A stretch of 63,675 nucleotides of DNA, the filler included, from Kipferlia bialata (lineage: Eukaryota), in assembly GCA_003568945.1 (NCBI GenBank). It is 3 parts of 3 records of this genome, joined end to end, with 100 filler letters (N's around TTAATTAATTAA, not from the genome) between each part and the next. Parts side by side here need not be neighbours in the genome. Positions count along the whole stretch, not along the records: positions 27,426 to 54,710 come from BDIP01000171.1; 2 more parts are not named here. One strand, written 5' to 3'. This document shows positions 27,326 through 62,346 of the stretch, piece after piece. Under the pieces are notes generated by a model that was given only the letters and a program-made list of their open reading frames with translations, did no database searches and was not told the origin of the DNA. Every line of letters begins with the position of its first letter. The stretch's first letter is position 1. The position numbers and the translations under genes were made by a program.

Positions 27326-27425
27326 NNNNNNNNNNNNNNNNNNNNNNNNNNNNNNNNNNNNNNNNNNNNTTAATTAATTAANNNNNNNNNNNNNNNNNNN
27401 NNNNNNNNNNNNNNNNNNNNNNNNN
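27326..27425. other. Artificial contig-joining spacer (N44-TTAATTAATTAA-N44)
   Basis: Six-frame stop linker at 27370-27381 embedded in N runs; an identical structure occurs at 54711-54810. Confidence 0.97.
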
Positions 27426-40036: not shown

Positions 40037-42659
40037 TGTAATACACACTCTCTCCGTACAGTATCCTATATATGTGTATGTGTATATGTTCTACTCTAAC
40101 ACCCAGGGTGTACGTCCAGTTCAGGAGACCAGAGTACCCTCTGGAGGTTGGTAGATGTATGCATATGTATATGTATACACATTTGTGTTGTCCCTGCTGT
40201 GTCTTTGTTAATCTTCTCCCCCCCTCTCCCTGCCAGGCATCCCCCTCCACTCCCACCTCTGTGTTAAGCTCTAACCTTTCTTTCTCTCTATGTCTCTTCT
40301 CTCTCCCCTGGTATGTATATAGATATACCATATTTCGTCTCTCCTGTCAGTCACTCCCCCTCCCTTCATTCTCCCTTCAGTCTCTCTGTCGCTCTACCTT
40401 CATGGATACATTTTTCGATCTCACTAGTTCAGTGTCTCCGTCTGTGCCCCGAATGTCTTCCTATTTGTATCTGAGACCATTTCTCTCTCCCTCTTACTCT
40501 ATAGGTCTTGTCTCTGAGATGACCACTGTGCTGGTCAGACCTACTCTCTCTCTCGCTCTCTCTCTATATCTCCCTATATAGCTATCTTACTCTGCAGGTC
40601 TTCTCCGAGATCACCACTGTACTCTACAGACCTGAGGATGAGTCCGATGACCTACCCGAGACAAGCCTTATTGTGGACAAGGTCAAGGTGAGAGGGATGT
40701 ATGTATGTGTGTGTACATATATAGATAGATAGAGAGATATACCAGTATCATAGTGGACAAGGTCAAGGTGATGGGATGTCTATGAATACATATATGTGTA
40801 GGTATAGAGAGAGAGAGTGAGAGAGAGATACCAGTCTCATAGTGGACAAGGTCAAGGTGGGGGATACACTACCTACTCTAGACGCAAATGATAGTATATA
40901 TATATGTGTATATGTATGTGTGTATGCATATTGAGGATGAGTCCGATGATCTACGTGAGACGAGCTTAAGGTGAGAGATGTGTGTATATATACCATTTGT
41001 ATGTAGAGAGAGAGGCTATGATGTATACATTGTGGTAGAGTCGGAAGACAAGCCTTATTGGACAAGGTTAAGGTGAGACAAAGAGTTCACTATCTAAATA
41101 TTGAGGGACTGTGATATAAGTCTATATCACTACAGCTCATAGCACTATTTCTCTCTCTCTCTCTCCCTCTACACCCTTTTTTCAGGCCCTCTGTAAGTCC
41201 TATGGCATGGCCCTTGTGGACATGATCTCTCTTTCTCTCTCTCTCTCTCTTTCTCCCTCTACACCCTTATGTCAGGCTCTGTGCAAGTCCTATGGCATGA
41301 CGCTTGTGGACAGGAGTGACCCAACTAGGAGGACACCCGCTGCTGGGTGTATTCAGGTGTGTCGTATTCACACATAGTACTAGTATACTGTGCTAGTATG
41401 CTGTTTGTGTATATCTCTATCCGTACTGATCCACTTATCCTTTCTTATCTGTCTATATGTCCATCTCTAACCCCCCAGATCCGCACCGGTCACCAGAAGC
41501 TGGTGCCCTCGGCAATCGGCAGGTACGGCATATGTATATCTATGTATATACATATATATGTCCTATACCCCATAATGTCTTCCTCTACCCTCTATATCCT
41601 CCTACACCCTTACTTCAGGATGCCCTTCCTGGACAACGTGTCAGATGACAAGCTGTGGGACATTATGGTTAGGTATGTATACATTTCCACTCATACATAC
41701 ATATGTATGGGTACCACGCTCTGGGGCATTATGGCCAGGGATTGGGATATGTACATAATTGTCGCCATCTCCCTATAACATTCTCTCTCTCTCTCTCTCT
41801 CTGTGTCTGTCTGTCTCTCTCCCCCCCTAGCCCCTTATTCTAGGCACCAGGACTGGCTGGATGACAACAGACTGGACAGAAAGGCAGTCATTGCACCCAT
41901 GACCAAGTACAGCATAGTGACACCGGAGAAGCTACAGGTATATATATGGTATATCTCTCCCTCAACACCCGTAACCCCAGGCCCTTCAGAACACTCTCAA
42001 GAGCAACTCCCGCAAGAAGTTCTCCTGTCTGTATGACGAGAACACCACAATGTTCGAGGTCATCATCATCGCATGGGTCAAGCCAGGTATATAAACTCCA
42101 TGTATATATATACGTCACTCAGTATACTATGTATATTGTTACTATTCAATTCTATGTATGTATTAGTGTAACACAGTTCGAGGTCATCATCATCGCATGG
42201 GTCACGCCAGGTGAGTAATTTTGGGTGTTTTGTGTATTATTGTGTATTATGATGTATTATTGTGTATTATGATGTATTTGTACTATGATGCTCCTGTCCC
42301 AGTACCCCTTCTCTCTCTCTCTCTCCATATATACATGTATATATACATGGATACGTATATATGTGTATGTATCTCACCCCAAGATGCCCCTGTCCCCAGA
42401 CCCATGCTCTCTCTCTCTCTCTCTATGTCTCTATCTATCTATCTATCTATCTATATATGCCTTACCCCAAGATGCCCCTGTCCCCAGACCCATGCCCACC
42501 AGGCCCCTCAGTGACAGGTATGTATACTTCTGTATGTTTTATATGTATTAATATATATATGTGTGTATCAGTATGTGTGGGGGCAGCTGTCTCTCTCTCT
42601 CTCTCTCTCTTTGGGCCCATGCCCACAAGACCCCTCAGTGACAGGTATATATTGATGAA

Positions 42660-42708
<49 letters not shown>

Positions 42709-43439
42709 ATATGGGGGCAGCTCTCTCTCTCTCTAAACCCATGCTCCTCAGGCCCCTCAGTGAGTCTCTGCAATATCCTCTACACCTTCTACACCCCTTA
42801 TTCACCCCAGACTGCAGCAGAAGGCAGATGCAGCCAGAAGAGCCGAGGAGGAGGAGTCAGGTATATTCACTAAATGATATACATTCATATATATATTTAT
42901 ATGTATATATACAGAAAGAGAGAATGTGGCTAGACGTGCCGAGGAGGAGGAGTCAGGTATATCGATCTATATCTGTGTTTGTATATATAGATAGATAGAT
43001 AAACAGAGATATAGACTTAAGACGTGTCGAAGAGGAGTCAGGTGGTAATGTAGTCTAGTCCCCCTCAAGTTCTCTATGTGTCCAATTGTGTGTCATATTC
43101 TACATTATCTCCCTAACCCCCCAGGGGATGAGTCCGAGACTGAGCTGAGTGACTGTCTGTCTATGTCTAACCCTCTCTCTCTCTTTCTCTCTCTCTATAT
43201 ACATACATATATTACATATATATATCCGTGTCTTACCTCAGAGTCTGACTCTGGGACTGAGCTGAGTGAGACCATAGAGGGACCACCCCCTCTGTCAAGG
43301 TATTTATATATATATATACTATATATATATACTATATATAGTGGATATAGAAGTAGAGAGAGGGAGAGAGGGAGAGAGTAGTGAGCTGAGTGACACGATG
43401 GAGGGATCACCCCCTCTCTCAAGGTATATGTGTATATAA

Positions 43440-43478
<39 letters not shown>

Positions 43479-44586
43479 CCATATCCCACCCCAGACAAGA
43501 GGCCCAGGAGCTGTCCCCCAAGGAGAAGGAGGAGAGGAGGGTATGCATACTACTTCTATATACTACCATACTGTACAATATAGTATATGTATATGTATGT
43601 GTATATATATAATATGTATACTCAGGACCTGTCCCCCAAGGAGAAGGAGGAGAGGAGGGTATGTATATCTGGTGTTCAGAGACATTATTGGATACTTGTG
43701 TATGTATATTGATTTATAGCATCACCCCCAGGCCCTATTTTATGTACATATTGATATATATACTATTATATGTACATATAGATGTATACTATCCATGCCT
43801 CACCCCAGGCCCTGAGGAAGGCCAGGAACGCCCAGCAGAGGAGGCACCAGAGGTATAGATACATATATGGATAGATGTTTAAATGGTATTGGTGTACAGG
43901 ATATATATATATATATATATAAAGGAGTGTCAGGAACGCCCAGCAGAGGAGGCACCAGAGGTGTGGATACACATACCTACATATATACATACACATGCAG
44001 AATGATAATCGAGTGGGGCAACTTGAGTGTATGTCTTCCTCTGCACCCTTTTCTCTCTCCCTCTACCCCCTTATTATCAGATACCTCATCAAGCGGCTGA
44101 AGGAGAAGCGGGCCGAGAAGCTCGTGAAGGAGAGAGAGAGAAAGGAGAAGGAGCAGGAGGAGAGGGAGAGAGAGAGAAGCGCCCAGAAGGAGACACCTGC
44201 CGCTGCACCTGAGAGGAGAACAAGGTATATCGCTTTCACTATCTATTTTATACTAGTATATGTATTTTCTCCCTAGTATATACATCTCATGTACAGGAGG
44301 CAGAGGGAGAGAGAGGAGAGGGAGAGCGGGTCCTCTGGGTCCACCCCTGTGGCACCCGGGGCAAGGAGGAGACCAGAGCCAGCTAGGTTGGTGTATTAGT
44401 ATTTACTATACTATATTGAATTATTACATATATCAGTGTATGTATATATGATACCCCTGTGGCACCTGGGGCTAGGAGGAGACCAGAGCCTGCTAGTTAT
44501 AAACTATATAAATTAATATTTCTATATATATACAAATATATATATATGTATATATGTGTGTGAGGCAGCTGTTTATGACTCTTCTG

Positions 44587-44626
<40 letters not shown>

Positions 44627-45846
44627 AGCCCCTTATTTCAGTAGCCGTCTGTCAAGGGAGGCCAGAGAGGCAAAGAGGGCCATCCAGAAGGAGAAGGTAT
44701 AATATATATGTAATAGTATATAGTATATAGTGTATAATTAGTACATTTATGTGGATAGTCTATCTATGCTGAATGAAAGAGGCAAAGAGGGCCATCCAGA
44801 AGGAGAAGGTACTCTCAATGCGTTATATATTTCTATATGTATATGGATAGTCTATATATACTGGGAAAGAGGGCCATCCAGAAGGAGAAGGTACCCATGC
44901 TATATATAAGTATGAACTCATGTATATATGTATATACATATGATATGTTCGTGCTCATCTGCAGGAGAGACAGCGCTATGAGCAGGCCAGGCTGCAGAAG
45001 ATGCAGAGGGAGAAGGCAGCTAAGGTATATTTAATATACACAAGTAGATATATATATAGAGAGAGAGAGAGAAAGAGAGGCTGCAGAAGATGCAGAGGGA
45101 GAAGGCAGCCAAGGTATTGTATGTAGACATTCACATGTATTGTATTCTATATATATATAGAAGTAGAGAGAGAGAGGCTGCAGAAGATGCAGAGGGAGAA
45201 GGCAGCCAAGGTATATTTGTATATATATGTATATATATGTGTATATATATATTGAGAGAGAGAGAGGCGGCAGAAGATGCAGAGGGAGAAGGCAGCAAAG
45301 GTATATGGGTATATATGAGTATATATATAGATATAGAGAGAGAGAGAGAGAGAGGCTTGCCAGACTGCAGAGGGAGAAGGCAGCCAAGGTATACATACAA
45401 TACACGTACATATGTACACGTATATATGTATATATATTTATATATTTAGAGAGAGAGAGGGGGGGTTCAGAAGATGCAGTGGGAGAAGGGAGCTAAGGTA
45501 TCATAGATACTCTACAGTTCAGTAACTATTACGCATACATGTAGTAATCTCTATATAGTACTATATATCTCTTTTTACCTTCTTACCCTTTAGGAGAAGG
45601 CCGAGTCTAGATCACTTCACTGGCCCAGTCTAGATCACTTCATATGTTATAATATACTGTATTGATGCGCACTATGTGTTATTATATACTGTATATATAT
45701 CCTAACCTATAGGAGAAGGCCCAGGCCCAGGCCCAGGCTCAGCCATCTGGAGGGGCAGCGTCAATCACACAGGTAGGGGTGTATATATAGAGAGAGAAGC
45801 GGATGACGTAGATAGTTGTATGTACTCACCCCAAGTCATTGGAGCA

Positions 45847-45908
<62 letters not shown>

Positions 45909-47271
45909 GACATCTATATGCATATATCATGTCCTCACCCCCAGGTCACCGAGGCCCCTCTCCACGTGCCAGGCGTCATCATTGCTAGGCCAGGTAATGA
46001 TGTCATCATATATAGTTGTGTATTTTCAATCATCAATCTTCATATATCTATGAATGTATCTATGTATGTTTATGTCTTCTCCCCCTCACCCCCAGGCCAA
46101 GCCGTCCCCCCTGGGTACAGATGTGTGGTCCAGACTCCAAAGGGTATGTGTTAGTATTTATACTCTTTTTAATATCATATGTACATATACATATGCGTGT
46201 GTACAGATGTGTGGTCCAGACACCAAAGGGGATGTGTGAACATATATATGTATATATATATGCTATTTTTAATGTCGTGTGTACAGATGTGTGGTACAGA
46301 CTCCAATTGTATACACTTAGACACAATACAGTATGCATGTATTTGTATACAGTATCTCTGGATGGGGATGCGTAGTACAGACACCAATGGGTGTGTGGTA
46401 TGTGTAGCTCCTCCTTTCTCTCGCAGTATCTCTCTATAGCTATATGTGCATATATACACATTCTTACCACAGGTCACATAATCACCCCCCATGGCACCTC
46501 CTACTCTGTCTCTCTCTCTCTCTCTGAATATGTATACATATACACTACCCCCAGGTCACAAGATCACCCCCCATGGCACCTCCTACACCCCCTCTGTGCC
46601 CATGTCTAGTAGGACACCCCGGACAGAGGCTGTGTCACCTAGGTATATACATATTATAGATATATACATAATATATATACTCTTGTATATACACCCCCTC
46701 TGTGCCCATGTCTAGTAGGACACCCAGGACAGAGGCAGTGTCACCTAGGTATACCATAGTATACTGTAGTATACTATAGTATACTACAGTGTATATGTTG
46801 TAGTATGTAGATGTACCTTCACTTACTCTATCTCTCTCTCCCTACACCCATATTCACCATAGGCTGCACTCCCCCATGATGCCCATCACACCCCAGCCAG
46901 GCGGAGACAAGTTCCAGGTACATATATATATATGTATACTATACTCTATGTACTGTGTATAGTATATGCTATAGTGTATACAATAGGGTATACCATCACA
47001 CCCCAGACAGTTCCAGGTACTCATGTATAGTATATATATATAATGTATATTATATACAAGTATCTCTTACACCTAGGTCAATCTGATGGTTGATCTCCAC
47101 GAGATGTCTGTCATCCATTTATATGTATATATATAATCTAAATGTATATTTATCATAGGTGATTGTTTATATTATACAAGTATTTCTAACCCTTAGGTCA
47201 ACCTGATGGTTGATCTCCACGAGATGTCTGTGATCCAGAAGGTGCTGGGAGAGCTGAGGGGGCAGTACTAA
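39461..47271 (+). CDS. Hypothetical protein with a globular N-terminal part and an E/K/R-rich coiled-coil C-terminal part; >20 small exons
   Basis: MPL|RVASVTSCRPTANNY|RVYVQFRRPEYPLE|VFSEITTVLYRPEDESDDLPETSLIVDKVK|ALCKSYGMTLVD..|..FEVIIIAWVKP|..EKRAEKLVKERERKEKEQEE..|VNLMVDLHEMSVIQKVLGELRGQY*. The exon phases that were checked are consistent. Confidence 0.75.
44990..45500 (+). repeat. Exon-end echo array (gcagaagatgcagagggagaaggcagc.aaggta, 6 copies)
   Basis: Copies near 44990, 45080, 45177, 45267, 45356 and 45467 with (TA)n/(GA)n spacers. Confidence 0.9.
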
Positions 47272-47712
47272 AGGGTGTAGAGGGGGAGAGAGAGCGTGAG
47301 GGTGCTTGGAGAGCTAAGGGGGCAGTACTAAAGGGTGTAGAGGGAGAGAGAGAGAGAGAGAGAGAGAGACTGACGGCTTGGTTCACTCTTAATGAGAGCG
47401 AGAGACAGAGATGTTTAGTGTTTCAGGACGGGACATACAATGACGGCCCACCTGTGTTTTTTGTCGTGTTGTAATAGATGTTGAAAGTGTTCATTTGTGT
47501 GTATAGATTACAACACACATGAGAGTAATGGACGTGAAATCTGAAATGTGAGAGGCCAGAATTGGTAGTCTATTTACACAAAGAACACAACACAACATCC
47601 AACGGATAGAGTCTGGTACGCTTCAAGCTAGCTCCTTCAAGAACACTTCCACCTCTCTCTCTCTCTCTCCCCCTCTCTCTCCTTCCTATTCCACTCTCTC
47701 TCTACTCATTCA

Positions 47713-47779
47713 CTACAGAGGCTCTGGAACATCTTCAAAGTTGATCCACATGGTGTCAGGGGCCCTGGATATTAGGGGT

Positions 47780-47823
<44 letters not shown>

Positions 47824-50053
47824 AGTTGATCCACATGGTGTCAGGGCCCCTGGACACTATGGGTCCAGAGAAAGAGAGAGAGACACTCAGAGACAGTGAC
47901 TACAAACCTTGGGTTCCCTCCAAAGTATGGCCCTAGCAGGTATATATATATATTTATATATATATATATATCTATAGAGAAAGAGAGAGATATACACACC
48001 TTGGGTTCCCTCCAAAGTATGGCCCTAGCAGGTATCCCTTGTCGTACTTGTCACACTGAGGGTGAGCAATGACAAGATCTCTAATATCTATAACCAAGTC
48101 TCATACTTTGCATCCCCTATATACCACCTTCAATCCTCCTATATGGGTGCACAGTACACATGCACAGTGCCTTATATATTCAAAACACATACCTGTGTGT
48201 GTGGCATCGTGATGGTCTCACTCCACACACTATCTCACTCGGCTTCAATATATATATATATATACGCGTACCATATCATATAGGTATACACTGATATGAA
48301 TATATCAATAGTTATTACAGTATCACATATACATAATACCTGTGTGTGTGGCATCGTGATGGTCTCACTCCACCCACCCCCTTTCTGTATACCATNNNNN
48401 NNNNNNNNNNNNNNNNNNNNNNNNNNNNNNNNNNNNNNNNNNNNNNNNNNGTAGGTATATAGTGATCAACTATATATATATATATATATACAACAATAAA
48501 TATACCTGTGTGTGTGGCATAGTGATGGTCTCACTCCACACATCACCCCCTGTGGGGTCACAGATGGTGATGTCGGTGTGGTCCTATAGTTAGAAGAGAG
48601 ATAGAGAGAGAGAGATGGTGATGTCGGTGTCCTGGAGGGTAAGATATACCTAACTATAGAGAGAGGGGGGAGATACAGACAGAGAGAGAGAGAGGTCACA
48701 GATGGTGATATCGGTGTGGTCCTGGAGTTACATGTGAGATAATGAGGGAGAGAGAGAGATATAAATCCCAATGTGATACAATTATACGATACTACGCTAA
48801 ATACCTCGTAGAACTCTATGATGCCCCTCCACTGTTCGTAGTACATGACACGGTGCTTGAACCTGATCAGGTGCCTACCGTAACTGGGGTGAGCAGTAAA
48901 CATGATATTTGTACATATTATATAGATAGACTATATGAACTAAATGATTTTGTATAGGTAAGAGACGCGGTGCTTGAACCTGATCAGGTGCCTACCATAA
49001 ATGGGGTAAGTATTAAATGTGATATGGATACATACTAATAACAGAATGTATGAACTAAATGTATCATGTATTGGTATGTAAATGACGCGGTGCTTGAACC
49101 TGATCAGGCGTCTGCCATAACTGGGGTAAGTATAATAACTGTAATTGTCTGCCATAGCAAGGGGTTAGATGATATGTATATATGTATACATAGTGAAGGA
49201 GAAGGTATTCGGATACATACACAACGGACTAGAATACTACAACCGTTCAATGTGTATATATACACTGTATATTCATTTGTACCACTCACTCGTTGTCTGT
49301 GTACAGGGCTGTGTCATAGGAATAGGCACCCAGCTCAATCTCGCCATACTGGGGTGAGAGGGAGAATGGATATATACATACAGTATCCGCTGTGTACCTG
49401 TGGGCACAAGGGTCCCAGGTCAATGGCTGTCCCATCCCCATCAGAAGAAGGGACAACACACTCAAAGGCCCTGGGATAAGACATGGGAGTATATGTATAG
49501 AGAGAAGGAGAGAGAGAGAGAGCATCTGAGGAGGGGACTACACACTCAAAGGCCCTGGGATTAGATGAGTATATACAAGGACAACTGTTATTGTATAGTA
49601 TAGATATTGTACTACACTCACCTGTTCCACACTATCCTGTCACTCTGGTGGTGGTGCATCTTGAGGTAGCCACACCGGCTAGAGCCAAAGACTGGTATAA
49701 GGGTGAAGAGAGAGAGAGAGAGAGAGAGAGAGGTGCATCTTGAGGTAGCCACCGGCTGGACCCAAAGACTGGGATGAGAAGGTAATATCAGACAGCTATT
49801 ATACACGGTATATAGACTAGAGAAATTGCGTACCCTTAGTGGCAAAGTGCATGTGGTCTCCATCTGATAGAACTAGAGTGGTATACACAAAGTAGCATAT
49901 ATGTTACCATACCACTACAAAATACTATATGACATATCTATATATACACATACCCTTGCTGGCAAAGTGCATGTAGTGCATGTTGTCTCCATCGGGTGAC
50001 ACGTCAGGGGTCAGCCAGTAGGTGGCGGTGGTCTAGGATGAGTGTGGGGGAGG

Positions 50054-50097
<44 letters not shown>

Positions 50098-50135
50098 TAG
50101 GTGTCAGCCAGTAGGTGGCAGTGGTCTGGAGTGAG

Positions 50136-50176
<41 letters not shown>

Positions 50177-50829
50177 AGTCAAGGGTCAGCCAGTAGGTGG
50201 CGGTGGTCTGGAGTGAGATATATATATATAAATATATATATACAAAGAGAGAGAGAGGCAGAGAGAGAGAGGGAGGCAGAGAGAGAGAGAGAGATGAATG
50301 GTCTCGAACCTCACTCATATCCACCAGGTGGTCCATCTTTGTTCCGTGTCTGAAGCCCTCCCAGATGGGGAAACGGAAGGAGTAGTGCAGGTGCCTGTAG
50401 GTGAGAAAGAACAAGAATTTACAATAGACTCACCATATAGTATAGTTTCAGCATACTATTGTGTGTGTGTCAGAATACGTACTAGGCCTAGGAAATAGTG
50501 TATCCGCCCTGGAACAATAATAACCAGCCAATCATACCTCATATCCATATGTATATATATCATAGTTTCAGTATATACATATATATATGTATATACCTAT
50601 AGATGTATGTATGTGTGTATATTAGCTCACTCACTTGTATATGGTGTATCTGCCCTGGTACACGTTGTATCCAGCCAGACCGGCTATCAGACAGGCACAC
50701 ACGAATATGACTGGAGTTAGAGATTGAGAGAGAGAGAAAGAGAGATAATTTACTAATAGAACACCGAAAATGAGGAATGTGAGTGTCATACATATACTAA
50801 CTGATATATACTGATCTATCAGAAAGCAG

Positions 50830-50876
<47 letters not shown>

Positions 50877-50960
50877 ATACCGAATATGAGACATGTGAGT
50901 GTGAGGCACTTGCAGCAGCAGGACTTCTCCTTCTTGACCGTGACAGGTCTGTATCCATAC
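47713..50960 (-). CDS. Single-pass membrane protein with an uncharacterised GYxLxPYFGG domain; 5' end uncertain
   Basis: Spliced YGYRPVTVKKEKSCCCKCLTLTCLIF|VIFVCACLIAGLAG (TM) YNVYQGRYTIYK|HLHYSFRF..ASK|VFGSSRCGYLKMHHHQSDRIVWNR|..|YGEIELGAYSYD..|CDKYDKGYLLGPYFGGNPR|APDTMWINFEDVPEPL*. Confidence 0.7.
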
Positions 50961-50976
50961 CTAATGGTAAGAATAG

Positions 50977-51045
50977 AGGGGGGGGGGGGGGGGGTTGCAT
51001 GGGGGGGGGGGGGAGGGGGAGGGGGGGGGGGGGGGGGGGGGGGGG
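50977..51045. repeat. Poly-G tract
   Basis: About 70 nt almost entirely G. Confidence 0.9.
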
Positions 51046-51069
51046 TTGAAAAGGGAAGAGACGCAGTAC

Positions 51070-51479
51070 CTACTTTGACCGCATGGTATCGTTCCAACGC
51101 TGTGTCAAAAGGACACTGCACTATCTGTTGTCGGATAGGGACACGGATATAGAGGGATATGGAGGGGGAATGCTGGGACAGGTGAAGCAGGCCCATAACT
51201 GCGTGTATATACAGTGTATGTGCAAGAGACTAGGAAAATTGGTGCTTAAAACCCACCTCCTCTGTGAATGTATCATCACTGTGCATTGTGAGTACCATGC
51301 AGACATGACCACTTGCCCTATCATGCCTACAGTGAGTGGTATACTGTCAATGACATATCCAATGCTATGTGACACCCCACCCACCCTAGCAGCAGTGCCT
51401 CCCCGTCTCCCAGTGACACCAGACCCAGCACCCTCTCGGGCACATGGGGGAGAGACACGGGGACACACTTGGAGGCCAT
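51070..51479 (-). CDS. 5' fragment of a hypothetical (possibly Kelch-family) protein, ending at a poly-G tract
   Basis: MASKCVPVSLPHVPERVLGLVSLGDGEALLLG|HDRASGHVCMVLTMHSDDTFTEE|IVQCPFDTALERYHAVKV; three phase-compatible exons. Confidence 0.45.
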
Positions 51480-54710: not shown

Positions 54711-54810
54711 NNNNNNNNNNNNNNNNNNNNNNNNNNNNNNNNNNNNNNNNNNNNTTAATTAATTAANNNNNNNNNNNNNNNNNNNNNNNNNNNNNNNNNN
54801 NNNNNNNNNN
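54711..54810. other. Artificial contig-joining spacer (N44-TTAATTAATTAA-N44)
   Basis: Linker at 54755-54766 within N runs. Confidence 0.97.
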
Positions 54811-58423: not shown

Positions 58424-60323
58424 CTACTGGACACCGGCAGCGACAAAGGCCTGCTCGAGGTCAGCGATGATGTCGTCGGCGTGCTCGAGACCGACAGAGA
58501 TACGCACCAGACCCTCTGCAATGCCGTACTTGGCCCTGGCCTCGGGTGAGTATGTGGCGTGGGTGGAGACGGCAGGGGCACAGACTAGGGTCTCGGCATC
58601 GCCAAGGGACACGGCACGCTTGCAGAACTTGAGGGCGTCCATGAACTTCTCAGCGGCATCGAAGCCTAGGGGGTGAGGGAGAGAAGGTGTATGTGTGCAA
58701 AGAGTATATATATATATAAACATGTATGTACCTCCAGTGAGCTCAAAGGCCATCACGAGGCAGTATCCGTCGAGCATCTTCTTGGACACCTCGTAGTAGG
58801 GGGAGGTGGGGTGGGACGGGCAGTACAGCACGTCCACGCCCTTGCCAACCTTCTTGGCCACGTGGGCCACAACCTTCTCGCAGTTCTCTCCGTGGCGCTG
58901 GATACGCACGTGGAGGGTCTTGAGACCGTTGATGAGGGCGTGGGACACCCTGGGGTTGGGAGAGGTGACAAAGAGGGATATATATACACCCGGCAACGCA
59001 TATTCCAAACACACATACCTAGCGTCGCACACGGCTCCAGTGCAGTCCTTGAGGCCCTCGAACCTGATGGGTCCGAGGAGGGAGGCAGGGCCAACAACGG
59101 CTCCGGCCAGGGCAGTGCCGCTGCCGATCATGCCCTTGGTGAGGGAGTACACGACAAGGTCGGCACCGTGCTCCATGGGCCTGTGGACGTAGCTGGGGTC
59201 AGAGGGGGCGGATGTGGAGGGAGGGGAGGGGAGGTGTTGGTTGTGTCACATTGAAGGATTACAATGAAACACATGACACTATACCTAGTGGTGAAGGTGT
59301 TGTCGACCACCACGAGGCAGTCCTTGTTCTTGGCGTGCACCATGTCGGACACGGCACGCACGTCGGTGAGGCGGCACACGGGGTTGGCTGGGGGGTAAGG
59401 AGAGGGAAGAATGAGATAGGACAGAGTGGAGGCCTGCGAAATAGGTTAAACACATTGATACGCATAACCGTACCCACAGCCTCGAAGAACACGATCTTTG
59501 TGTTCTCCTTCATGGCGGCCTCCATGGCGGCCATGTCTGTGGTGTCGACAAAGTCAACCTCAACGCCAAACTTGGGCAGAATGTGGCTGGGGTGAGAGGC
59601 TGCAAGGCAGGAACATCTCGACTCAGCTAGTACTCATATATACATACTAGTCTTACCTCATGTAAGCGTAGGTGCATCCGTAGATAGCAGAGCTAGCGAT
59701 CATGTGGTCGCCGGCCTTAAGGAAGGTGTAGCAGGTGGCGCAGATGGAGCCAATGCCACTGGCGAAGACACATGCAGCCTCGGTGCCGTCAAGGGCAGCA
59801 AGACGGGCCTCGGCGACAGAGGAGGTGGGGTTGGAGATACGGGTGTAGATGTATCCCTCCTTCTTGCCGGAGAAGGTGTCACGCATGTCAGCTGGGGTGA
59901 GACAGATGAATACGTCAAAACTCCGGACCAACTAGCAACTCAAGTATCCAGTTCGTGCTCTTTACTGGCTTCCAGACAGGGACTGGGAAAGGACTTACCA
60001 GCGGAATCGAAGGTGAAGGTGGAGGTGGCTGGGGGTTAGATCTGGTTTCGACAAATCTTAACTATACAACCTCAACAGCAGAGGGAAACACAAATCGACA
60101 TGGTACATGGACCACAAGACAGTGACGACTCATTAGATAGAAATCTTTCGACCATGGAGAGCATAAGGGTTAACTTGCGATGCATCTCAATCTTGTCAGT
60201 GTGAGTGAACGTACCGTAAATGGGAGGGGCAAGAGCGTGAGCGTTCTCAGCGCACTCCTTGTCACCGTAACCGGCGTGCACGCATGTGCTGTTGAAGTGG
60301 TGGTGCTCGTGAGTGGATGGCAT
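58424..60323 (-). CDS. mgl: Methionine gamma-lyase (Cys/Met metabolism PLP enzyme)
   Basis: STCVHAG..APPIY|ATSTF, YIYTRISNPT, FASGIGSI, IYGCTY (the Tyr-Gly-Cys typical of MGL), VVVDNTF, SLTK (PLP Lys), AVSLGDAETLV and GLVRISVGLEHADDIIADL. Confidence 0.9.
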
Positions 60324-60655: not shown

Positions 60656-61957
60656 TTACTCGATGACAACGGTCCAGTTGTTCTTGTCCTCGACCTTGCC
60701 CCACTGGATGCCAGTGATCTGGGAGTAGGCCCACTCGGACACGGAGCGGTCGGACTTGTTGAGGTCGGCATCGAAGTCCTGGGAGTAAGAGATAGAGAGG
60801 AATGGATATGATGTGGAGTGCATACCTTGTACTTCAGGCCTCCGACGGGGGTAACAACGGCGGCGGTTCCGGTACCGAAGCACTCGAGAAGCTCTCCGCT
60901 CTCGATCCATCCAAGGAGCTCCTGAGGATCAGGGAGACAACAAATGAATACAAATCATAGGAACAATACATATATAAAAGTATATACACACCTTGATGGG
61001 CACGGGCCTCTCCTCGACGGAGATGTCGTCCCTGGAGGCGCAGAGGGTGAGCATGGAGTCACGGGTCACTCCGGGCAGGATGAGGCCGTCGAGGGGGGCG
61101 GTCACGATCTTCTTCTTGTCCTCGCCGTCCTTGACGACGCAGAAGAAGTTCATGGCACCGACCTCGGTCAGGAAGTGCTCCTCATCGGGGGAGAGCCACA
61201 GAATCTGAGGTTAGAGTGGTGCAAGGTAGTAGTGAAACGAAAGTCTCAGAAAGTCTCACACTGATTGAGAACGATCTAGAAACCGGTAGAACACACATAC
61301 CTGCTGGCAGCCCTGCTTGGCGGCCATGGACTGGGGCATGATGGTGGGGGCGTAGTTGCCTCCGCACTTGCAGGCACCCACACCTCCGGGGGCAGCCCTG
61401 GCGTACTTGTCGGTGGCCAGGAGCTTGGGAGCGCTGGTGGCGAAGTAAGGGCCGGAGGGGGAAAGGATGATGAACAGCTTAGCGGCCTTGGGGCGGCACA
61501 CTCCCAGGTACTGGTGGGTGGACACAAGGGTGGGCCTGATGTACAGAGAGTGGGCAGCGGCCTTGGGGATGAACTTCTCATCCACCTTCACAACGGCCTT
61601 GATGAGCTCAACAAGCTCCTCAGGCACGATGGCGGGGAGGTCCAGGCGAGAGGCAGAGTCAGCAAAACGCTGGGCGTTCTTGAGAGGGCGGAAGAGACGG
61701 ATCTTGTCATCATCACCATAGTAAGCCTTGAGGCCCTCAAAGATCTCAAGACCGTAGTGAAGGCAGGTAGAGGCAGGGTGGATAGACATGTTGTGGAAAG
61801 GCACAATCCTGGGCACTCCCCAGCCCTCCTCGTCAGTCCAGTCGCACTCGAGCATGTGGTCGGAGAAGCAGTGTCCGAACTTGAGCTTATCCTGGGGAGG
61901 AAGCTCAGTGGGGGTCTGAGTGAGCTCAATGGTCAGATCGGCGACGGGAATAGACAT
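60656..61957 (-). CDS. ilvE: Branched-chain amino acid aminotransferase (class IV PLP), 4 exons
   Basis: FGHCFSDHML, LHYGLEIFEGLKAY, LYIRP, GACKCGGNYA (PLP Lys), EVGAMNFF, ILPGVTRDS and ECFGTGTAAVVTPV. Confidence 0.95.
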
Positions 61958-62346
61958 ATTTCAGCTAGTTCGGGACTTAAAAAGGCAATCAGGTGGCTCT
62001 TTCGCTGACGAGTCTTTCGATGTCCTTATTCCGCCCCCTTATTGCAAAAAACTCATTATTATAATAGGCATTTGATTCAGAGAGTCAAGCAGTCACAGGA
62101 TACACCATTGAGCCTGCTTACACCCAATTAACATCAAAGCTTTCTTCATATGGGCTGATCAGCACCAGAATCTATTGAAATCAATGAGACCGGTAACCGT
62201 TTACAGTTCGTATAGTGGACATGCAACTAAAACAAGGGAGTCTCATTCATCTAGACGGCAAACACTAGAACCAGCCTCTGGTCCAGCAACGAGAAGTTCT
62301 ATCGCATAATAAACCGGGAGAGAGGCTCCTCACAAAATGTTGCTCC

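What the first reader, a model, noticed from the sequence alone, without database searches (positions are those of the whole stretch)
40500..50210. Exon echoes in introns and UTRs differ from the real exon mostly by synonymous changes
Seen in the sequence: truncated, apparently non-coding copies of exon ends keep the encoded amino acids. (1) ACA AGC CTT ATT GTG GAC AAG GTC AAG (40661) vs ACC AGT CTC ATA GTG GAC AAG GTC AAG (40830), 4/4 synonymous. (2) 44343 vs 44453: CCC/CCT, GCA/GCT, CCA/CCT. (3) 46584 vs 46690: CGG/AGG (a synonymous first-position change) and GCT/GCA. (4) 47197 vs 47077: AAC/AAT, GTG/GTC. (5) Minus strand 49440-49471 vs 49524-49555: GTT/GTA, CCT/CCC, TCT/TCC, TCT/TCA. These pairs were hand-picked; some echoes also carry indels or replacements (2-nt deletion at ~49750, insertion at ~40510). 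A neutrally decaying duplicate should differ mainly at non-synonymous positions. Inference: the echoes were copied from a diverged but functional version of the exon, for example by microsatellite-triggered repair or template switching from another allele or homeologue. Alternatively they are exchanged with the live exon by conversion, or are used in splicing. I know of no description of this pattern.
Basis: partly seen in the sequence, partly recalled or inferred. Interest (0 to 1): 0.9.

Follow-up and report, generated by a model that had tools for sequence, protein, structure and literature searches.

The report
Dead exon halves carrying other alleles
In five genes of the free-living flagellate Kipferlia, most exons have broken, spliced-out copies of their ends in the neighbouring introns that differ from the working exon about six times more at silent than at protein-changing sites, likely because they were copied from other working alleles during break repair, which would be genetic evidence of sex in a group where it has never been seen.

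Summary
The window encodes Kipferlia bialata proteins. A frame-blind scan finds 83 echoes at 41 of 59 exons in five genes. Upstream echoes copy exon starts with AG, downstream ones copy exon ends with GT. DNA contigs bridge echo and exon at flat depth with no variants, and an RNA contig skips the echoes to the base. Fourfold sites differ at 77 of 278, non-degenerate sites at 56 of 1144: ratio 5.7 (4.0-8.0). Echo against echo gives 7. Replacements look random, and silent divergence (about 0.22) is the same in every echo whatever its decay. Most likely the echoes are dead fragments of other working alleles, left by break repair between highly diverged homologues. Donor alleles were not seen: one isolate, no relatives. 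The scan noted exon echoes before in sea urchin DNA, where the silent excess fitted the null; here it does not.

The parts
39597..47271 (+). Gene E, 23 modelled coding exons; from 40598 on it equals KIPB_001242 (P0001); 31 echoes at 17 exons
   Evidence: RNA contig covers 41978-42086 and continues into the exon at 42472. The two exons before 40598 are my model only
40511..40542 (+). 5' echo of exon 40598-40687, ends in a CT tract; reaches exon position 36
   Evidence: bridged with its exon by one DNA contig
40750..41072 (+). Four 3' echoes of exon 40598-40687 (40750, 40830, 40932, 41046); the third starts at exon position 35; the farthest matches the live codons where the second has four silent changes
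41186..41225 (+). 5' echo of exon 41276-41356 with AG kept; 4 silent, 2 replacement changes
41715..42210 (+). 3' echoes of exons 41619-41672 (41715-41734) and 41981-42086 (42176-42210, GT kept, skipped in RNA)
42384..42763 (+). One 5' echo (42384-42406) and two 3' echoes (42616-42644, 42737-42763) of exon 42472-42517
42929..43960 (+). Echoes of exons 42811-42860 (AGA>CGT, both Arg), 43242-43299 (5' and 3'), 43495-43540 and 43809-43852
44453..44890 (+). 3' echo of exon 44297-44386 (3 silent changes) and two 3' echoes of exon 44642-44696
45078..45497 (+). Five 3' echoes of exon 44965-45024, about 90-nt period, GA tract before each; Ala codon GCT/GCC/GCA
46198..47010 (+). Echoes of exons 46096-46143 (two 3'), 46555-46642 (5' to position 32, 3' from position 29) and 46863-46917
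47077..47331 (+). Last exon 47197-47271 with a 5' echo ending at position 41 (47077-47117) and a 3' echo starting at position 41 in the 3' UTR (47298-47331)
47713..51124 (-). Gene F, 12 modelled coding exons, equals KIPB_001243 (P0002) from residue 56; 15 echoes at 9 exons
48964..49120 (-). Two 5' echoes of exon 48883-48805 (TAC>TAT, GGT>GGC, AGG>AGA, CGT>CGC)
49523..49768 (-). 5' echoes of exons 49470-49398 (4 of 4 silent) and 49691-49622 (2 silent, 2-nt gap)
49846..50207 (-). Two 5' echoes and one 3' echo of exon 50032-49954
36123..39253 (-). Gene D, 10 coding exons, 11 echoes at 6 exons; the spliced model fits RNA contig 9 of run X2 to the base
27897..29121 (+). Gene B (last four exons, my model only), 5 echoes, 11 of 11 differences silent
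82..3817 (+). Gene A, first 10 exons of KIPB_001237 (P0003), on another contig; 21 echoes at 8 exons; the echo at 3373-3401 has Glu like the paralogue KIPB_006491 where the live exon has Gly

Best explanation
The echoes are real, spliced-out fragments of exon ends that were likely taken from other working alleles: a break inside an exon is likely repaired on a highly diverged homologue, so the old fragment and the new copy would differ at silent sites from birth and the fragment would then decay. Steps. (1) Shown: each echo is one end of its exon plus that end's splice dinucleotide, upstream for starts and downstream for ends, about 31 nt long. (2) Shown for gene D and one junction of gene E: the main mRNA skips them. 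Inferred: an echo has only one splice site, so splicing by exon definition ignores it, and only such duplications survive. (3) Shown: silent sites differ at about 0.22-0.28 between any two copies, whatever the amount of replacement change, and replacements look unfiltered. Inferred: two phases, a long one under protein selection in separate alleles and a short one of neutral decay. (4) Inferred: a broken 3' end mis-primes at a CT/GA tract in the flanking intron of the homologue, recopies the intron end and the exon, and rejoins. One mis-primed end leaves one echo; both leave the two halves of the old exon around a new whole copy. (5) Inferred: this needs silent allelic diversity near 0.2 and meeting of homologues, that is sex or parasex.
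For: Ratio of fourfold to non-degenerate differences 5.7 (77 of 278 against 56 of 1144, each variant counted once); bootstrap over 41 exons 4.0-8.0, 0 of 10000 at or below 2. Simulated dead-echo null through the same score filter: 1.4-3.0 against 6.5 observed on all silent sites. Echo against echo: 38 of 156 against 27 of 792. Differences private to one echo: 25 silent, 16 not; 3 of 4 three-state sites are fully silent. Silent and replacement divergence are uncorrelated (rho 0.01) and silent counts are not overdispersed (0.76). Three age-scaled models with a fast live exon give P at most 0.01 and 0.003 on these two measures; a constant silent offset plus decay fits (P 0.15-0.37). Replacements are no more conservative than random (BLOSUM62 -0.47 against -0.40, 59 codons), and 5 of 6 gaps shift the frame. 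No fresh sister-type duplicate was found: the 9 echoes at least 97% identical to their exon have intron flanks only 0.40-0.75 identical. In 6 of 11 exons with both kinds of echo, the 5' echo ends within 5 nt of where a 3' echo starts (2.1-2.4 expected, P 0.005-0.009). CT tracts follow 5' echoes (10) and GA tracts precede 3' echoes (8 of the 14 with a tract). One echo keeps the residue of the paralogue where the live exon changed. Metamonads lack NHEJ; fornicates lost Rad51A, keep two Dmc1 paralogues and retain meiotic genes (PMC8516963, passages). Dmc1 stabilises mismatched joints (PMC6719624, abstract). Silent diversity of 0.20 has a precedent (PMC4576712, abstract).
Against: No donor allele was seen: run X1 shows no other letters on 34300-42290, and no related locus was found in metagenome contigs. 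Intron flanks are barely more alike than unrelated introns (0.61 against 0.55 at donors, 0.64 against 0.56 at acceptors; 3 of 58 reach 0.9). That is more divergence than alleles at 0.22 should show, unless the microsatellite-rich introns turn over much faster. 5' and 3' echoes do not co-occur on one exon more than chance (11 of 59, P = 1.0), and the shared-breakpoint test was devised after seeing these data. Only 24 of 62 broken ends have a tract of 8 nt or more nearby. The diversity needed equals the highest value in the abstract read, and sex has not been observed in metamonads. No stop codon among 59 replaced codons; about 2.4 were expected among the first 48 (P 0.085), a faint hint of constraint. 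Model parameters were tuned by hand. Five genes of one window only.
Confidence: 0.5

Rival explanations
1. The echoes are old duplications whose exon-like part is overwritten from time to time by gene conversion from live exons of other alleles. It needs the same high diversity and recombination, but the allelic sample is taken after birth, not at it.
For: Explains best why the intron flanks are near the unrelated baseline while the exon part is 93% identical, and why silent divergence is equal in all echoes.
Against: Does not explain the shared breakpoints. Conversion tracts would have to act on 15-59 nt of homology. Conversion from the adjacent exon on the same chromatid should make many identical echoes; only 0.084 of 83 have no substitution.
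Confidence: 0.2
2. The echoes are themselves under codon-level selection, because they are now and then recombined into the live exon (so a replacement in an echo is a load) or spliced into rare mRNAs.
For: Low dN/dS also between echoes; 54 of 57 splice dinucleotides kept; no stop codons; flanks diverge much faster than the exon-like part.
Against: Replacements are not conservative (only a weak trend after trimming, P 0.22); 5 of 6 gaps shift the frame; echoes are absent from the main mRNA of gene D; each echo has only one splice site. Splice-site retention matches the 4% decay rate. The load version also needs high diversity (my reasoning).
Confidence: 0.13
3. The echoes are sister-chromatid duplicates, identical at birth, and silent sites of live exons simply change four to five times faster than echo DNA.
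For: Gives the observed ratio when tuned; needs no sex.
Against: Predicts correlated silent and replacement divergence, overdispersion and more identical echoes; rejected on the first two in all three versions. No echo has both parts nearly identical. Sister echoes carry reciprocal private silent changes. No base-composition skew that points to such a mutational process (34 GC>AT against 25 AT>GC).
Confidence: 0.07
5. Assembly artefact: alleles or chimeric reads joined in tandem.
For: The public assembly of this species is from short reads (PMC5874029, methods section); run X1 may be the source sample; reads were laid only on 34300-42290.
Against: 10 of 19 echoes in the laid stretch are bridged to their own exon by a single listed contig with 0 differences, at depth 434-466 like their neighbours (418-460). 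Echo polarity follows gene orientation in 83 of 83 cases, none reaching the wrong exon end.
Confidence: 0.03

Closest known systems
Tandem duplications of exon-intron junctions into introns (human F7 intron 7 VNTR and sea urchin 'exon echoes', both as named in earlier scan notes; not checked here)
   Same: Exon end plus splice site repeated head-to-tail in the intron, spliced out, lengthening the intron.
   Different: There the silent share was reported as 43 of 107, at the null; here the ratio is 5.7 against 2, about 1.4 echoes per exon, and the intron part of the unit is not conserved.
Heterogeneous (heteroallelic) gene duplications, e.g. mosquito ace-1 (PMC6121789, PMC5137868; search listing and abstract starts)
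   Same: Two alleles of one locus placed in tandem on one chromosome.
   Different: Those are whole, working, selected gene copies; these are 15-59 nt dead fragments, many per gene.
Duplications and insertions at meiotic breaks in mouse (bioRxiv 10.1101/2020.06.23.168138, abstract and section list)
   Same: Breaks yield tandem duplications and joints between homologous chromosomes.
   Different: Rare end-joining events at hotspots in a low-diversity species; metamonads lack NHEJ, and here the products are fixed in most exons of the genes examined.
Processed pseudogenes and dead duplicates compared with their parent (recalled)
   Same: Frameshifts and unfiltered replacements after death.
   Different: Expected dN/dS about 0.5; observed 0.15.
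Silent donor cassettes for gene conversion, such as VSG, vlsE or chicken Ig pseudogenes (recalled)
   Same: Partial, unexpressed, frame-related copies beside an expressed site.
   Different: Those store amino-acid variety; these store silent variety in ordinary genes and often lose the frame.

Membership tests
Dead tandem copies of exon-intron junctions | Copy holds one exon end and its splice dinucleotide, in the adjacent intron, same strand | tested here: met
   83 echoes; 54 of 57 that reach a splice site keep AG or GT; 0 of 83 reach the wrong end
Dead tandem copies of exon-intron junctions | Removed from the mRNA | tested here: met
   Gene D: predicted record positions 663 and 1014 equal the observed ones; gene E junction 42086 to 42472.
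Dead tandem copies of exon-intron junctions | Identical at birth, then dN/dS near 0.5 and flank as similar as the exon part | tested here: not met
   Ratio 5.7 against 2; flanks 0.62 against exon part 0.93
Heteroallelic duplications | The two copies descend from different alleles | tested here: inconclusive
   Indirect signs fit; no second isolate or allele available
Heteroallelic duplications | Both copies are whole and functional | tested here: not met
   Fragments of 15-59 nt, skipped, often frameshifted
Tandemly duplicated, mutually exclusive exons | Copy has both splice sites and appears in mRNA | tested here: not met
   No echo spans a whole exon (largest fraction 0.86); absent from the gene D contig
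Silent conversion cassettes | Reading frame kept and amino-acid variety stored | tested here: not met
   5 of 6 gaps shift the frame; differences mostly silent
Silent conversion cassettes | Sequence moves from donor into the expressed site | not testable with these tools
   Needs lineages or isolates; no variant letters in run X1
Meiotic break-repair products | Junctions sit at mapped meiotic breaks and arise between homologues | not testable with these tools
   No break map or cross exists in reach; only shared breakpoints in 6 of 11 exons

The most novel reading that the evidence does not exclude
Kipferlia routinely mends breaks inside its short exons by patching in a new copy from a homologue about 20% diverged at silent sites, using its mismatch-tolerant Dmc1 system and intronic CT/GA tracts as primers, and leaves the halves of the old exon as scars. 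One genome would then be an archive of many past alleles: genetic evidence for sex and record-level diversity in a free-living fornicate, and a distinct engine of intron growth.
Probability: 0.3. Interest if true: 0.9.

Novelty: new variant of a known kind. Interest (0 to 1): 0.72.

Why it matters
Sex has not been observed in metamonads (PMC8516963, passages). If echoes are fragments of other alleles, allelic diversity and past recombination can be read from a single genome, and one more isolate gives a sharp test. The echoes also account for much of the intron length in these genes (about 153 nt plus 82 nt per echo). They imply that this spliceosome ignores perfect lone splice sites, as exon definition would, in an organism whose introns are short. 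They also mislead gene annotation (one echo is annotated as a first exon). If the selection rival is right instead, non-coding copies would be policed at codon level, which is as surprising.

Tried and rejected
No whole genome was held, so no genome-wide count. Reads were laid only on 34300-42290; the rest of the finding has no read check. No listed run is on record as RNA; X2 is a guess, but one of its contigs joins exons exactly across introns. Metagenome contigs: 595 pattern matches, 0 relatives; patterns may span exon junctions, so this is weak. The minus-strand region 31.3-35.2 kb is echo-rich, but I could not fix a reliable frame and left it out of every count. Also left out: echoes scoring under 24, microsatellite-like stretches of 10 nt or more (masked), non-adjacent introns. 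The cut-off was calibrated on genes B, D, E, F and reused for A. Excess of position-2 over position-1 differences (37 against 24) vanishes after trimming broken ends (21 against 21): junction over-extension. Distance from the exon does not predict divergence. Pfam gives no family for KIPB_001242 or KIPB_001243. Rejected: dN/dS near 1 as the null; a transition bias as the cause (74 transitions, 73 transversions; base-matched permutation gives a silent share of 0.29); error-prone recopying filtered by selection (would need about 20% error per site with no harmful change; my reasoning). No description of this pattern was found in paper searches, nor in the passages and methods section read of PMC5874029; the library lacks most subscription journals, and no supplements were read.
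Full report
What the window is. An intron-rich eukaryote with GT-AG introns. Exon queries returned Kipferlia bialata proteins at 100%, 96% and 100% identity: KIPB_001242, KIPB_001243 and KIPB_001237. The window joins separate contigs with N-flanked spacers at 27326-27425 and 54711-54810. A self-comparison found 80 near-tandem repeats at E below 0.01: 22 in the first 4 kb, 55 between 28 and 52 kb, 3 between, none after 52 kb.

Gene models. Gene E (+, 39597-47271) equals KIPB_001242 from exon 40598 on; gene F (-, 51124-47713) equals KIPB_001243 from residue 56; ten exons of gene A equal the start of KIPB_001237. Gene D (-) was modelled by hand and checked against an RNA contig: predicted record positions 663 and 1014 equal the observed ones. 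Gene B and the first two exons of E are my models only. The public annotation is AUGUSTUS with transcript hints (PMC5874029, methods section).

Is it real DNA, and is it expressed? On 34300-42290, contigs of run X1 lie with 0 other letters; 10 of the 19 echoes there are bridged to their own exon by one listed contig at depth 434-466, like neighbouring contigs. X1 may be the source sample, so this is a second assembly, not a second sample. No diverged second copy shows at 85% likeness. Gene D's RNA contig leaves no room for an echo. In gene E a contig runs from 42086 straight into the exon at 42472, skipping one donor echo and one acceptor echo; its remaining length would end at 47355, in the UTR repeat, if no echo is included, which fits but does not prove. 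Contigs drop rare forms.

Anatomy. 83 echoes at 41 of 59 exons; median 31 nt, range 15-59. The 31 upstream echoes copy the 5' part of the exon, the 52 downstream ones the 3' part; none reaches the wrong end; 54 of 57 keep AG or GT. In 12 of 13 introns with both kinds, donor echoes precede acceptor echoes. Intron length is about 153 nt plus 82 per echo (rho 0.79, 54 introns). A microsatellite of 8 nt or more lies at 24 of 62 broken ends against 0.17 of intron windows: CT after 5' echoes, mostly GA or TA before 3' echoes. This polarity may reflect the mechanism or just normal intron layout: GA tracts lie in the 5' half in 13 of 17 cases, CT tracts in the 3' half in 36 of 47.

The count. The right null is not dN/dS near 1. 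A dead copy changes everywhere and the live exon at silent sites too, so fourfold sites should differ at most twice as often as non-degenerate ones. Observed, each variant once: 77 of 278 against 56 of 1144, ratio 5.7, bootstrap over exons 4.0-8.0. Every gene shows it. Wrong frames give 0.3 and 0.5. Trimming broken ends raises it to 6.8-7.0. A simulated null through the same score filter gives 1.4-3.0 against 6.5. Against my reading: dropping the five picked pairs leaves ratio 4.6 and a silent share of 68 of 122 against 0.45, P = 0.011.

What kind of excess. Echoes differ from each other the same way (38 of 156 against 27 of 792), and one codon can have three spellings (ACA/ACG/ACC, GCT/GCC/GCA, CCA/CCG/CCT). 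Silent divergence is flat across echoes and unrelated to replacement divergence; age-scaled models fail on both measures and a constant silent offset plus decay fits (parameters tuned by hand). Replacements are not conservative, and 5 of 6 gaps break the frame, though no stop codon appears among 59 replaced codons. Intron flanks of the units are close to the unrelated baseline, even for echoes nearly identical to the exon. One echo has Glu like the paralogue KIPB_006491 where the live exon has Gly (a single case). Read together: each copy spent a long time as working code in a separate lineage, and a short time dead.

Mechanism. In 6 of 11 exons with both kinds, the 5' echo ends within 5 nt of where a 3' echo begins (P 0.005-0.009; test devised after seeing the data; the two kinds do not co-occur above chance). 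I infer a break inside the exon whose 3' end mis-primes at a CT/GA tract in the flanking intron of a diverged homologue, recopies intron end and exon, and rejoins; the old fragment stays outside with one splice site and is ignored. Context from papers: metamonads lack NHEJ, fornicates lost Rad51A and keep two Dmc1 paralogues, meiotic genes are kept, sex has not been seen, and a relative is predicted haploid (PMC8516963, passages); Dmc1 stabilises mismatched joints (PMC6719624, abstract); breaks can give tandem duplications between homologues in mouse meiosis (bioRxiv 10.1101/2020.06.23.168138, abstract); silent diversity reaches 0.20 in Schizophyllum (PMC4576712, abstract); protists have the largest median Ne (PMC12895298, passage). 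None of these shows the mechanism in Kipferlia. I give capture at birth 0.5 and later refreshing from other alleles 0.2, so about 0.7 that echoes sample other working alleles; selection on the echoes 0.13; faster change in live exons 0.07; ordinary decay and artefact 0.03 each.

Comparison and novelty. Junction duplications into introns and heteroallelic duplications are known kinds (break repair in intron gain, PMC3488318, passages). Two earlier scan notes describe exon echoes in sea urchin; one found a silent share at the null (43 of 107; not rechecked by me). What differs here is the density and a codon signature about three times the null. I found no description of it in searches of a library that lacks most subscription journals. 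Verdict: a real feature, a new variant of a known kind, with an inferred mechanism that one more isolate can test. Interest 0.72.

Noticed in passing
window 40519-40536: The public model KIPB_001242 begins with six residues read from the 5' echo. In-frame exons at 39597-39641 and 40107-40146 are the likelier start; the RNA contig begins 2 nt before exon 40598.
   Followed up: partly
window 6400-27300 (-): A very long run of short-intron coding sequence with almost no microsatellites and only two near-tandem repeats, in sharp contrast to the echo-rich genes; four ORF pieces gave no Pfam family and two more none.
   Followed up: no
window 27370-27381 and 54755-54766: The same 12-nt spacer between N runs joins separate contigs, so gene A is not linked to genes B-F.
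   Followed up: yes
window 4977-5780 (+): KIPB_001237 and paralogue KIPB_006491 (PepX_C domain) are nearly identical over the last 160 residues but 61-68% alike elsewhere, and the echo-rich first 233 residues have no match: possible paralogue conversion, or a fused gene model.
   Followed up: no
introns of genes A, B, D, E, F: GA tracts sit in the 5' half (13 of 17) and CT tracts in the 3' half (36 of 47) of introns; they could pair and loop out the echoes, but only 3 introns have both.
   Followed up: partly
window 31300-35200 (-): Echo-rich region with no reliable reading frame found; an exon ending at 34796 has three 3' echoes, one with TTG>CTA (both Leu), seen by eye.
   Followed up: partly
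window 58424-59245 (-) and 61256-61960 (-): Cys/Met metabolism PLP-dependent enzyme and class IV aminotransferase pieces in an echo-free contig.
   Followed up: no
window 50880-50960 and 50635-50710 (-): KIPB_001243 has a basic, Cys-rich stretch followed by a hydrophobic segment, like a membrane anchor (by eye).
   Followed up: no
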